DNA of 64,000 nucleotides from Escherichia coli (lineage in GTDB: Bacteria > Pseudomonadota > Gammaproteobacteria > Enterobacterales > Enterobacteriaceae): the NCBI RefSeq assembly GCF_002854065.1, contig NZ_CP024147.1. One strand, 5' to 3'. The position numbers are program-made. Positions 51,801 to 54,800 of this stretch are shown piece by piece (the first letter of the stretch is position 1; each line of letters starts with the position of its first letter).

Positions 51801-54800
51801 CACACTCTGCCGTCGGGCGATCCACACGCTCCATCGTCATACCATCGTACTCAATGGTGTTACCGTCACGCTCAACCTCGTACAGCTCACGTTTTACGGT
51901 AACGTTAGTGAGATCATCAGACATCAATGTCAACTTACCCGGCACGGCAATCACCCGCTGCCACTGACGGCAATCAAGAGTATCGCCCTCTTTAGTGACA
52001 ATCAGGCTGCCTATCGCTTCCGGACTGACCAGCGCACGTTGCGGCCCTTTGGTCTGCCAGTAGCCCGCCAGCCAGTCCGGCGCGGGGGTTTTCACGACAT
52101 TGTTATAGTTTTCGACTTCGGCACAGCCCGCCAGCAACATGAGCGCGCCTGCAATTGCGAGTTTTTTCATCATTCGTCCTGCATGAGAAGAAAAGAGGAT
52201 TGTGGCATTAAAGCCCTGATGTCGCCAGCCTTTCCAGGTTCAGAGAGAAATTTGATCTAACTATTATTTTTGTGAATTATTACCCCGAAAATAAATTTGC
52301 ATGGTGTATGATTCGCGACTCTTGTTTCAAACCTTCTGAGTTCAGAGGCTACATTCATGTCATGGCAGCAATTCAAACACGCCTGGTTGATTAAATTCTG
52401 GGCGCCCATCCCCGCGGTCATCGCGGCGGGTATTCTCTCCACTTACTATTTTGGCATTACTGGCACCTTTTGGGCTGTCACGGGTGAATTTACCCGTTGG
52501 GGCGGCCAGCTCCTGCAACTGTTCGGCGTCCATGCTGAAGAGTGGGGTTACTTTAAAATTATCCATCTGGAAGGATCGCCATTAACCCGCATCGACGGGA
52601 TGATGATCCTCGGTATGTTTGGCGGCTGCTTTGCCGCAGCGCTGTGGGCCAACAATGTCAAACTACGCATGCCGCGCAGCCGTATCCGCATTATGCAGGC
52701 CATCATTGGCGGCATTATCGCCGGTTTTGGCGCGCGTCTGGCAATGGGCTGTAACCTGGCGGCGTTCTTTACCGGTATTCCTCAGTTCTCGCTGCATGCC
52801 TGGTTCTTTGCCATCGCCACTGCCATTGGTTCATGGTTTGGCGCGCGCTTTACCCTGCTGCCCATCTTCCGTATTCCCGTGAAAATGCAGAAAGTTTCTG
52901 CCGCCTCACCGCTGACGCAAAAACCGGATCAGGCGCGGCGTCGTTTTCGTCTCGGGATGCTGGTCTTTTTCGGCATGCTGGGCTGGGCGCTGCTCACAGC
53001 GATGAACCAACCCAAACTGGGGCTGGCAATGCTGTTTGGCGTCGGCTTTGGTTTACTGATTGAACGTGCGCAAATCTGCTTTACTTCGGCGTTCCGCGAT
53101 ATGTGGATCACCGGACGTACCCATATGGCGAAAGCAATCATTATTGGTATGGCGGTGAGTGCCATCGGGATCTTCAGTTACGTACAATTAGGCGTTGAAC
53201 CCAAAATCATGTGGGCGGGACCAAACGCGGTAATTGGTGGTTTACTGTTTGGTTTTGGCATCGTGCTGGCTGGCGGCTGCGAAACCGGCTGGATGTACCG
53301 CGCGGTAGAAGGCCAGGTGCACTACTGGTGGGTCGGTCTGGGCAATGTGATCGGCTCAACGATTCTGGCGTATTACTGGGATGATTTCGCTCCGGCGCTG
53401 GCCACCGACTGGGACAAAATCAACCTGCTGAAAACCTTTGGTCCGATGGGTGGCCTGCTGGTGACATATTTGCTGTTGTTTGCTGCGCTGATGTTGATTA
53501 TCGGCTGGGAAAAACGTTTCTTCCGCCGTGCGGCACCGCAGACTGCTAAGGAGATCGCATGAAAAATATCGTTCCTGATTACCGCCTTGATATGGTGGGT
53601 GAACCCTGCCCTTATCCGGCAGTCGCAACCCTTGAGGCGATGCCGCAGTTAAAAAAAGGGGAAATCCTGGAAGTGGTGAGCGACTGTCCGCAGTCGATCA
53701 ATAATATTCCACTGGATGCGCGTAATCACGGCTATACGGTGCTGGATATTCAGCAAGACGGGCCGACCATTCGTTATTTAATTCAGAAGTAATCCCTCAT
53801 TCCCGCTGTGACCCACAGCGGGAACATCGTTACCTTTGTATCACATAGATTTTACCCGCCCCCTCTCCTATTCTTTTCAGTATGATCTCAGGAGGTTTCT
53901 ATGTGTGGACGCTTTGCCCAATCCCAAACGCGTGAAGATTACCTTGCGCTTCTCGCGGAAGATATTGAACGCGATATTCCCTATGATCCCGAACCCATTG
54001 GCAGATACAACGTCGCGCCGGGAACCAAAGTCCTACTGCTCAGTGAACGTGATGAACATCTTCATCTGGATCCGGTTTTCTGGGGATATGCTCCCGGATG
54101 GTGGGATAAACCGCCGCTGATTAACGCCCGCGTAGAAACTGCGGCAACCAGTCGTATGTTTAAACCGCTCTGGCAACATGGTCGGGCAATCTGTTTTGCC
54201 GATGGCTGGTTTGAGTGGAAAAAAGAAGGCGACAAAAAACAGCCTTTTTTTATCTATCGTGCTGATGGACAACCTATTTTTATGGCCGCGATAGGTAGCA
54301 CACCATTTGAGCGTGGTGACGAAGCCGAAGGATTTTTGATCGTCACTGCTGCGGCAGATCAAGGTCTGGTAGATATTCATGACCGCCGCCCACTGGTACT
54401 GTCGCCAGAAGCTGCGCGGGAATGGATGCGGCAAGAGATTAGCGGTAAAGAAGCCTCAGAAATTGCTACCAATGGCTGTGTGCCAGCTAACCAGTTCACC
54501 TGGCACCCGGTATCGCGCGCGGTGGGTAATGTTAAAAACCAGGGCGCAGCGTTAATTCAACCTGTCTGTTAACCCTGGAGATTATTGATGAACTAAAATG
54601 TGTCACAAGAAACCTCTATTCCAGTGACACAATTGCGCCTAATTACTTACATATAATATTTAATTAGGTGATCCTCACCATCTATTACATATTTTTTAAC
54701 CATATCGGAATATTTATCATAATCATCGGGGTTCGTAACAATATATTTCCGCTGCGATATTTCATAGCAAATCCCTGTAAGAGTCCATGGCATTAAAAAT

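What the first reader, a model, noticed from the sequence alone, without database searches (positions are those of the whole stretch)
53804..53828. Strong 11-bp stem hairpin between yedF and yedK without a U-tract
TTCCCGCTGTG-ACC-CACAGCGGGAA forms an 11-bp perfect stem with a 3-nt loop just after the yedF stop, but no T-run follows. It may be an RNA stability element or processing site separating yedEF from yedK, or a weak terminator.
Basis: seen in the sequence. Interest (0 to 1): 0.25.

Follow-up and report, generated by a model that had tools for sequence, protein, structure and literature searches.

The report
Stem-loop ending the yedEF mRNA
The hairpin is real and marks where the E. coli yedE-yedF messenger RNA ends, acting as a protective 3' stem-loop without the usual U-tail; it is an ordinary operon-end element of a kind already described, not a new type of feature.

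Summary
The perfect 11-bp/3-nt-loop hairpin exists, 4 nt upstream of the stated coordinates (window 53800-53824; 7 nt after the yedF stop, 76 nt before the yedK ATG), with a predicted energy of -18.4 kcal/mol and no T-run on either strand. It is more than chance would give. It is single-copy, has no Rfam match, and is present in 5377 of 5426 complete E. coli genomes.

Published full-length primary-transcript sequencing of E. coli K-12 (SMRT-Cappable-seq) places the 3' end of the yedE-yedF transcript 1 nt (M9) and 4 nt (rich medium) after the stem. Only about 5-8% of the reads that reach it run on towards yedK-yedL.

The same stem is orthologous in Escherichia, Citrobacter and Salmonella. It keeps pairing through compensatory changes (97% of cells paired, 5 of 11 pairs covary), while the T-tract after it comes and goes. 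Other Enterobacteriaceae have unrelated hairpins, canonical terminators or REP elements in the same slot.

Best reading: it is the 3'-terminal stem-loop of the yedEF mRNA. It blocks 3' exonucleases and so defines the transcript end, which most likely arises by Rho-dependent termination just downstream followed by trimming. It separates yedEF from the RpoS-dependent yedK. This is a new member of a known kind, of low interest.

The parts
53800..53824 (+). Perfect 11-bp stem with a 3-nt loop (TTCCCGCTGTG-ACC-CACAGCGGGAA). It is the 3'-terminal stem-loop of the yedE-yedF mRNA.
   Evidence: structure, energy, uniqueness. (covariation in 17 orthologs). (stem invariant within E. coli).
53825..53828 (+). 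Mapped steady-state 3' ends of the yedEF primary transcript. MG1655 2009745 (M9) corresponds to window 53825 and 2009748 (rich medium) to window 53828.
   Evidence: PMC6131387 Supplementary Data 1. The coordinate offset of 1955920 was verified as collinear and indel-free.
52319..52319 (+). Transcription start site of the yedEF unit (MG1655 2008239), with a TATGAT -10 hexamer at 52307-52312.
   Evidence: PMC6131387 Supplementary Data 1 and 2. The sequence context is identical to MG1655.
52357..53792 (+). The yedE (52357-53562) and yedF (53559-53792) coding regions, which form the transcript closed by the hairpin.
   Evidence: ORFs. (RefSeq annotation).
53829..53900 (+). C-rich, G-poor untranslated spacer, with core TTTTACCCGCCCCCTCTCCTATTCTTTTC. 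It is a candidate Rho-loading region. It also holds a candidate sigma-S -10 element (CCTATTCTTTT, 53867-53877) and the yedK Shine-Dalgarno AGGAGG (53890-53895).
   Evidence: in the 78 nt after the stem C=22 and G=10 (top 6% of window positions), and YC dimers are in the top 2%; the promoter-like motif is invariant in 8 strains. The rut and promoter assignments are inference from sequence.
53901..54572 (+). yedK (SRAP-domain protein), the downstream gene that is separately regulated.
   Evidence: Microarray data: PMC2241611 and PMC2907692.

Best explanation
The hairpin is the 3'-terminal stem-loop of the yedE-yedF mRNA.

Shown: transcripts that start at the yedE promoter end 1-4 nt after the stem in K-12, and only about 5-8% of those reaching the site continue towards yedK-yedL. 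The stem is maintained by selection on base pairing across Escherichia, Citrobacter and Salmonella. It carries no U-tract in E. coli.

Inferred: RNA polymerase mostly passes the hairpin. It is then released a short distance downstream, most likely by Rho loading on the C-rich, G-poor untranslated spacer. 3'-to-5' exonucleases (PNPase, RNase II) trim the tail back until the GC-rich stem stops them. This leaves a precise, stable 3' end.

The element therefore both stabilises yedEF mRNA and insulates the growth-phase-expressed yedEF unit from the RpoS-dependent yedK gene. A few percent of read-through remains and yields a yedE-yedF-yedK-yedL transcript.
For: (1) Direct 3'-end data. SMRT-Cappable-seq of MG1655 maps the transcript from the start site 2008239 to an end at 2009745 in M9. 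Of 83 reads at the start site, 32 end at the mapped end, 17 end within 50 bp after it and 4 pass 50 bp or more beyond. In rich medium the end is at 2009748, with the corresponding counts 428, 195, 35 and 13. Both ends are labelled 'novelTTS', and the unit covers b1929|b1930. A b1929-b1932 read-through variant from the same start site is also listed (end definition). The hairpin is MG1655 2009720-2009744.

(2) The ends lie +1 and +4 nt from the stem, there is no U-tract (tail score -0.58) and no A-tract upstream. This is the signature that Dar & Sorek 2018 describe for Rho-dependent transcript termini, with C>G immediately downstream (PMC6061677). Here C=22 and G=10 in the next 78 nt.

(3) Some reads end scattered within 50 bp downstream: 17 of 53 in M9 and 35 of 243 in rich medium. 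This fits diffuse release followed by incomplete trimming.

(4) Covariation. In 17 orthologs 97.3% of cells are paired, against 38-59% when the partner is slid by 1-3 columns. Five of 11 pairs have compensatory changes, and 0 of 500 shuffles reach the observed covariation score. Fifteen G-U cells favour the + strand (97.3% paired on +, 90.9% on -).

(5) Within E. coli, 0 of 20 outer stem positions vary, against 13 of 76 spacer positions (P about 0.02). The most divergent variant keeps a 10-bp stem.

(6) The slot is conserved. Of the 81 sequences examined (the window plus 80 species), 79 have a simple hairpin in the first 40-70 nt after the yedF stop, nearly all starting within about 20 nt of it. 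Of these, 75 have an energy of -10 kcal/mol or lower, and only 31 have a T-rich tail. Several Citrobacter species carry a REP element there, and REP is a known 3' stabiliser.

(7) yedE and yedF fall while yedK rises at the stationary-phase transition (PMC2241611). yedK is among the top 100 RpoS-dependent genes in EDL933 (PMC2907692).
Against: There is no direct test of Rho dependence at this site. The Term-seq and bicyclomycin study of Adams et al. 2021 lists no curated 3' end and no Rho-termination region after yedF. It lists only one Rho region inside yedE, at 2008838. Low expression may explain the absence, but that is an assumption.

The C>G bias downstream is modest (top 6% of the window). 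The same sequence may instead serve as the yedK promoter region.

Only 76 nt separate the stem from a well-translated-looking yedK start, which is a short runway for Rho.

Steady-state read counts measure apparent termination, not kinetic termination. Rapid decay of read-through RNA would give the same picture.

SMRT-Cappable-seq was done on K-12, not on the strain of the window. The hairpin is identical, and the spacer between the stem and the yedK ATG differs at one base (window 53864).
Confidence: 0.8

Rival explanations
1. It is a non-canonical intrinsic (Rho-independent) terminator. The strong hairpin alone, perhaps with NusA or NusG, releases RNA polymerase despite the missing U-tract, and the mapped ends are true termination points or lightly trimmed ones.
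For: The stem is GC-rich, 11 bp and -18.4 kcal/mol. Orthologous stems carry a real T-run in Citrobacter sp. L018 (GGGAGATTTTTC, tail score -3.77) and in Salmonella diarizonae (-2.54), so the ancestral element may have been an intrinsic terminator. Apparent termination is 92-95%. Dar & Sorek discuss mixed or transitional cases.
Against: The 8 nt after the stem are CAUCGUUA, and the tail score is -0.58. By established knowledge of E. coli RNA polymerase, efficient intrinsic termination needs a U-rich RNA:DNA hybrid. The ends map +1 and +4 nt from the stem, rather than about 7-9 nt into a U-tract. The consensus scan does not call it a terminator. The T-tract is absent or weak in most orthologs while the stem is conserved, so selection acts on the stem independently of a U-tract.
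Confidence: 0.2
2. It is a processing product. Most transcripts initially run through into yedK-yedL, are cut by an endonuclease (for example RNase E) in the AU-rich spacer, and the upstream half is trimmed back to the hairpin. On this reading the hairpin is purely a stability element, and no termination occurs nearby.
For: A yedE-yedF-yedK-yedL transcript from the same start site exists. The spacer contains AU-rich single-stranded stretches (UUUGUAUCACAUAGAUUUUAC). The SMRT-Cappable-seq authors state that some of their 3' ends may derive from processing.
Against: yedK is regulated in the opposite direction to yedEF and depends on RpoS. This is easier to explain by separate transcription than by processing of one precursor. 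No processing-site data are available. In cryptic Escherichia clades, Salmonella and Citrobacter no yedK follows within the 1.5 kb fetched, so the hairpin's conservation cannot be about separating yedF from yedK.
Confidence: 0.12
3. It is a DNA-level palindrome: an operator for a dimeric regulator of yedK, or a recombination or integration site at the edge of the variable yedF-fliE island.
For: It is a perfect palindrome lying 76 bp upstream of yedK. Homology between genera stops at the 3' base of the stem. The yedF-fliE interval is a known variable island (PMC5122947).
Against: Compensatory changes keep pairing while changing the sequence, and G-U pairs break DNA symmetry. The hairpin is present in the other Escherichia, Citrobacter and Salmonella loci examined, none of which has yedK within the 1.5 kb downstream. 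There is no second copy at the other end of the island in K-12 or elsewhere in the window. The half-site spacing does not fit the CRP or LexA consensus sites (my own inspection of the sequence against remembered consensus sequences). Mapped RNA ends abut the stem.
Confidence: 0.03

Closest known systems
Protective 3' stem-loops at the steady-state ends of Rho-dependent transcripts (Dar & Sorek 2018, NAR; PMC6061677)
   Same: It is a stable GC-rich stem-loop with the RNA 3' end immediately after it. There is no U-rich tail and no upstream A-tract, and there is C>G bias downstream. The stem energy and length are indistinguishable from those of intrinsic terminators.
   Different: Rho dependence and exonuclease trimming have not been measured at this site. 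The untranslated runway before the next start codon is short (76 nt).
Canonical intrinsic (Rho-independent) terminator
   Same: It is a GC-rich hairpin at the end of an operon, a few nt after the stop codon. Orthologous or positionally equivalent hairpins in Citrobacter sp. L018, Salmonella diarizonae, Leclercia and others do carry T-runs.
   Different: The E. coli copy has no U-tract (tail score -0.58), and its 3' ends lie +1 and +4 nt from the stem.
REP / BIME elements as 3' mRNA stabilisers
   Same: They are extragenic palindromes that block 3' exonucleases. REP elements occupy exactly this slot after yedF in several Citrobacter species (L009, L010, L014, L015, L022, L023, L027, L040).
   Different: The E. 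coli hairpin is single-copy and has no REP consensus.

Membership tests
Canonical intrinsic terminator | A GC-rich stem-loop of about 5-14 bp with a short loop | tested here: met
   11-bp perfect stem, 3-nt loop, -18.4 kcal/mol.
Canonical intrinsic terminator | A 7-8-nt U-rich tract immediately 3' of the stem | tested here: not met
   The tail is CATCGTTACC, with 3 T in the first 8 positions. The tail score is -0.58, against -3.8 to -5.0 for canonical examples.
Canonical intrinsic terminator | RNA 3' end within the U-tract, about 7-9 nt after the stem | tested here: not met
   The published ends are at +1 and +4 nt.
Canonical intrinsic terminator | Factor-independent release in vitro | not testable with these tools
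   This needs in vitro transcription.
Protective stem-loop at a Rho-dependent transcript terminus (Dar & Sorek class) | A precise steady-state 3' end immediately downstream of a stable stem-loop | tested here: met
   SMRT-Cappable-seq ends at 2009745 and 2009748, against a stem end at 2009744.
Protective stem-loop at a Rho-dependent transcript terminus (Dar & Sorek class) | No U-rich tail and no upstream A-tract | tested here: met
   The upstream spacer is TCCCTCA.
Protective stem-loop at a Rho-dependent transcript terminus (Dar & Sorek class) | C-over-G enrichment (rut-like) just downstream | tested here: inconclusive
   C=22 and G=10 in 78 nt, which is the top 6% of window positions; YC dimers are in the top 2%. 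This is suggestive but not specific.
Protective stem-loop at a Rho-dependent transcript terminus (Dar & Sorek class) | Read-through increases when Rho is inhibited (bicyclomycin) | tested here: inconclusive
   The Rho-region table of Adams et al. 2021 has no entry after yedF, only 2008838 inside yedE. The locus may be too weakly expressed in that study.
Protective stem-loop at a Rho-dependent transcript terminus (Dar & Sorek class) | 3' tail lengthens in pnp or rnb mutants | not testable with these tools
   The Dar & Sorek supplementary tables are not held.
REP / BIME repeat | Many copies per genome with the REP consensus | tested here: not met
   There is one copy in the window and in the 8-kb K-12 locus. 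There are one or two places per E. coli genome. I infer that the second place is the palindrome matching itself on the other strand; I did not check this directly.
Any Rfam family | Match to a curated covariance model | tested here: not met
   No match at E <= 10 in window 52000-56000.

The most novel reading that the evidence does not exclude
The locus may be a natural example of a terminator switching mechanism during evolution. One orthologous stem has been held by selection on pairing since the Escherichia-Salmonella-Citrobacter split. Its U-tract is present in some lineages (Citrobacter sp. L018, Salmonella diarizonae and, weakly, S. enterica) and absent in others (E. coli, cryptic Escherichia clades, C. 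braakii). In every genus the homology ends at the 3' base of the stem. This is consistent with repeated replacement of the yedF-fliE island having swapped the tail, and in E. coli having placed the RpoS-dependent yedK directly behind a U-less stem. Dar & Sorek predicted such switches, but did not show them at an orthologous site in the text I read.
Probability: 0.4. Interest if true: 0.35.

Novelty: new member of a known kind. Interest (0 to 1): 0.15.

Why it matters
The finding matters mainly for annotation. It fixes the 3' boundary of the yedEF selenium-related operon. It also explains why yedK, the bacterial HMCES homologue, is regulated separately although it lies only 108 bp downstream on the same strand. 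It adds one well-documented case of a U-tract-less 3' stem-loop, with mapped RNA ends and cross-genus covariation. The case could serve as a small test bed for how intrinsic and Rho-dependent termination interconvert. It does not open a new question.

Tried and rejected
- Rfam search of window 52000-56000 at E <= 10 gave no match.
- A search for other copies of the palindrome, or of its 3' junction, in the window and in the K-12 locus gave no significant match: the palindrome search found only itself, and the junction search found one 3-mismatch hit at the chance rate. It is therefore not a repeat family, and no att-like duplicate lies at the other island end.
- The consensus promoter and terminator scan did not flag the hairpin or any sigma-70 promoter in the yedF-yedK spacer.
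- The Term-seq and Rho tables of Adams et al. 2021 have no entry at or after the yedF end. The supplementary tables of Dar & Sorek 2018 and of the nanopore paper are not held. The supplement of the metagenome stem-loop preprint has no yedF entry.
- The TATGAT hexamer at 53881-53886 was considered as a yedK -10 element and rejected. It would place the start site inside the Shine-Dalgarno sequence, and it is not conserved (TGTGAT, TGTGAC or TGTGCT in 6 of the 8 aligned strains).
- CRP and LexA sites were considered for the CTGTG-N3-CACAG core and rejected on half-site spacing (my own knowledge of the consensus sequences, not a tool result).
- A SECIS-like role was considered because yedEF are selenium genes. 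It was rejected because the yedF stop is UAA and no in-frame UGA precedes the stem.
- The strand test using G-U pairs favours the + strand only weakly, with about 3-5 independent events against 2-3. The mapped RNA ends decide the strand.

Full report
**Observation**

The inverted repeat TTCCCGCTGTG / CACAGCGGGAA with a 3-nt ACC loop is in the sequence. It lies at window 53800-53824, 4 nt upstream of the coordinates given. It begins 7 nt after the yedF stop codon (53790-53792) and ends 76 nt before the yedK ATG (53901). Gene identities follow the RefSeq annotation of identical or near-identical E. coli loci.

The 25-mer folds at -18.4 kcal/mol with z = -6.6. The hairpin survives in the minimum-energy and centroid folds of a 121-nt context. 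No T-run follows on either strand. A TransTermHP-style tail score that I computed is -0.58 on the + strand and -1.0 on the - strand. The simple terminator scan does not report the hairpin.

Perfect 11-bp hairpins with 3-8-nt loops occur 3 times in the window, against 0.16 expected from Markov shuffles. One of the other two, at 31718-31743, is a textbook bidirectional terminator. The element has no Rfam match, and no second copy was found in the window or in the 8-kb K-12 locus. A match to the region is present in 5377 of 5426 complete E. coli genomes.

**Direct experimental evidence**

The window is collinear with E. coli K-12 MG1655 from 52200 to the end of yedK. The offset is constant at 1955920, with 24 substitutions and no indels in 2381 nt. 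The hairpin is identical and corresponds to MG1655 2009720-2009744.

Yan et al. 2018 sequenced full-length 5'-triphosphate transcripts by SMRT-Cappable-seq (PMC6131387). Their Supplementary Data 1 lists one unit that starts at 2008239 and covers b1929|b1930 (yedE|yedF).
- In M9 the 3' end is at 2009745. Of 83 reads at the start site, 32 end at that position, 17 end within the next 50 bp and 4 pass 50 bp or more beyond.
- In rich medium the 3' end is at 2009748. The corresponding counts are 428, 195, 35 and 13.
- Both ends are labelled 'novelTTS', meaning they did not match a previously known terminator (method).

These ends are window 53825 and 53828, which are 1 and 4 nt after the last paired base. 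Of the reads that reach the site, 7.5% (M9) and 5.3% (rich medium) read through. The same paper lists a yedE-yedF-yedK-yedL variant from the same start site.

The Term-seq and bicyclomycin study of Adams et al. 2021 lists no 3' end and no Rho region after yedF. It lists only one Rho-termination region inside yedE, at 2008838, which is window 52918. This neither supports nor contradicts the mapping.

**Comparative evidence**

I fetched the yedF locus from 80 species of Enterobacterales and further contigs that carry the identical YedF protein.

A stem with the same core, (C/T)TCCCG...CGGGA(G/A), sits in the same 25-nt frame after yedF in E. coli, cryptic Escherichia clades, several Citrobacter species and all Salmonella sampled. 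On a 17-sequence gap-free alignment of these orthologs:
- 97.3% of cells form standard pairs, against 38-59% when the 3' partner is slid by 1-3 columns.
- Five of 11 pairs show changes on both sides. For example, the outermost pair is U-A in E. coli and C-G elsewhere, and the inner pairs switch among C-G, U-A and U-G.
- 0 of 500 shuffles reach the observed covariation score.
- Fifteen G-U cells would be A-C mismatches on the other strand, giving 97.3% paired on the + strand and 90.9% on the - strand. This is a weak pointer to the yedF sense strand.

Within E. coli, none of the 20 outer stem positions varies in eight diverse strains, against 13 of 76 positions in the spacer (P about 0.02). All variation falls in the loop or the loop-closing pair. 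The most divergent variant found keeps a 10-bp stem.

Sequence similarity between genera stops at the 3' base of the stem. This agrees with the published description of the yedF-fliE interval as a variable island (PMC5122947). Among the 80 species, yedK directly follows yedF only in Franconibacter. In E. coli itself yedK follows yedF in the window, K-12 and every other strain examined.

The T-tract after the orthologous stem is variable:
- Absent in E. coli, the cryptic Escherichia clades and C. braakii.
- Weak in S. enterica (ACCTTTT).
- Canonical in Citrobacter sp. L018 (GGGAGATTTTTC, tail score -3.77).
- Near-canonical in S. diarizonae (tail score -2.54).

More broadly, 79 of the 81 sequences examined (the window plus 80 species) have a simple hairpin in the first 40-70 nt after the yedF stop, nearly all of them starting within about 20 nt of it. 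Of these, 75 fold at -10 kcal/mol or better, and only 31 have a T-rich tail. In at least eight Citrobacter species a REP element fills the slot. What is conserved is therefore a stable stem at the end of yedF, not a U-tract and not a particular sequence.

**Mechanism**

The combination seen here is a precise RNA end immediately after a stable stem, no U-tract, no upstream A-tract and C>G downstream. The 78 nt after the stem contain 22 C and 10 G, which is the top 6% of window positions, and YC dimers are in the top 2%.

[quoted passage not shown] In their model, termination is diffuse downstream of the stem, PNPase and RNase II trim back to it, and rut sites lie just after it (PMC6061677). The sizeable minority of reads ending scattered in the 50 bp after the mapped end fits that model.

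I therefore commit to two claims with different confidence.
- The hairpin is the exonuclease-blocking 3' stem-loop that defines and stabilises the end of yedEF mRNA. Confidence is about 0.8, and this is the confidence given for the best explanation.
- Within that, the end is generated mainly by Rho-dependent release in the spacer or early yedK, followed by trimming. Confidence is about 0.5, because nothing here tests Rho or the exonucleases directly.

Two rival origins for the end are weak intrinsic termination (about 0.2) and endonucleolytic processing of a longer precursor (about 0.12). In both, the stem would still act as the barrier. A DNA-level role as an operator or recombination site is unlikely (about 0.03), given the compensatory changes, the G-U pairs, the presence of the hairpin in the other Escherichia, Citrobacter and Salmonella loci where no yedK follows, and the absence of a second copy.

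**Consequence for the neighbours**

yedEF and yedK behave as separate units.
- In O157:H7 Sakai, yedE (-2.15) and yedF (-2.78) fall at the stationary-phase transition, while yedK rises (+2.55) (PMC2241611).
- The spacer contains a motif invariant in the 8 strains aligned, CCTATTCTTTT (53867-53877). It resembles the sigma-S extended -10 element, and it would place a start site about 19 nt before the ATG, upstream of the AGGAGG Shine-Dalgarno. This is my inference from the sequence, not a mapped start site.
- SMRT-Cappable-seq saw yedK only on read-through transcripts. That experiment used late-log cells and selected cDNA longer than 1 kb, so a stationary-phase yedK promoter would have been missed.

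**Comparison with what is known, and novelty**

The element works like, and meets the testable criteria of, the U-tract-less protective stem-loops of Dar & Sorek. It fails two defining features of a canonical intrinsic terminator: the U-tract and the position of the 3' end. It is not a REP element.

The transcript end itself is already recorded as a row in a 2018 supplementary table. I found no individual description of the hairpin in the literature I searched. I rate it a new member of a known kind and of low interest (0.15).

The most novel reading not excluded is that this is a clean orthologous example of a terminator switching between the U-tract and U-less (Rho-type) states. On that reading the tail was swapped by turnover of the adjacent island. 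I give this a probability of about 0.4 and an interest of about 0.35 if true.

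Noticed in passing
window 52918 (MG1655 2008838), inside yedE: Adams et al. 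2021 list a significant Rho-termination region inside the yedE coding sequence. In SMRT-Cappable-seq, about 36-43% of reads from the yedE start site stop before reaching the yedF hairpin. This hints at premature termination or attenuation within yedE.
   Followed up: partly
window 53867-53877: The motif CCTATTCTTTT is invariant in 8 E. coli strains and resembles a sigma-S extended -10 element. It sits at a sensible distance upstream of the yedK Shine-Dalgarno. yedK is reported as strongly RpoS-dependent in EDL933 and as induced at stationary-phase entry in Sakai. I found no mapped start site.
   Followed up: partly
window 54573-56300: Collinearity with K-12 ends at the yedK stop, and the last ~110 nt of yedK are already unusually divergent. 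yedL is absent. Instead there is a leucine-rich-repeat (EspR4/YedN-like) ORF on the minus strand (54647-55558), followed by IS1 insA/insB-like ORFs (55600-56297). Only 2 of 5426 complete E. coli genomes cover 80% or more of this stretch, and at about 89.5% identity, so the arrangement is rare.
   Followed up: partly
window 31718-31743 and 32423-32452: These are the only two other perfect 11-bp hairpins in the window. The first, AAAAAACCTGC-CGGA-GCAGGTTTTTT, looks like a canonical bidirectional intrinsic terminator. The second, TTAATCAGCGA-N8-TCGCTGATTAA, has no T-run.
   Followed up: no
L009, L010, L014, L015, L022, L023, L027, L040 (about 1735-1775 in each): In several Citrobacter species the slot just after the yedF stop holds a REP-type palindrome (GCCGGATG...CATCCGGC) instead of the CTCCCG stem. 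This looks like functional replacement of one 3' stem-loop by another.
   Followed up: partly
L048 and L050 (Franconibacter), 1734-1820: Among the 80 species sampled, yedK follows yedF directly only in Franconibacter, as it does in E. coli. There too an unrelated GC-rich hairpin sits between the two genes.
   Followed up: no
L092, 1843-3098: One E. coli contig has a truncated yedK (165 aa) followed by an IS200/IS605-type Y1 transposase gene. This is another sign that the region just downstream of the hairpin is a hotspot for rearrangement.
   Followed up: no
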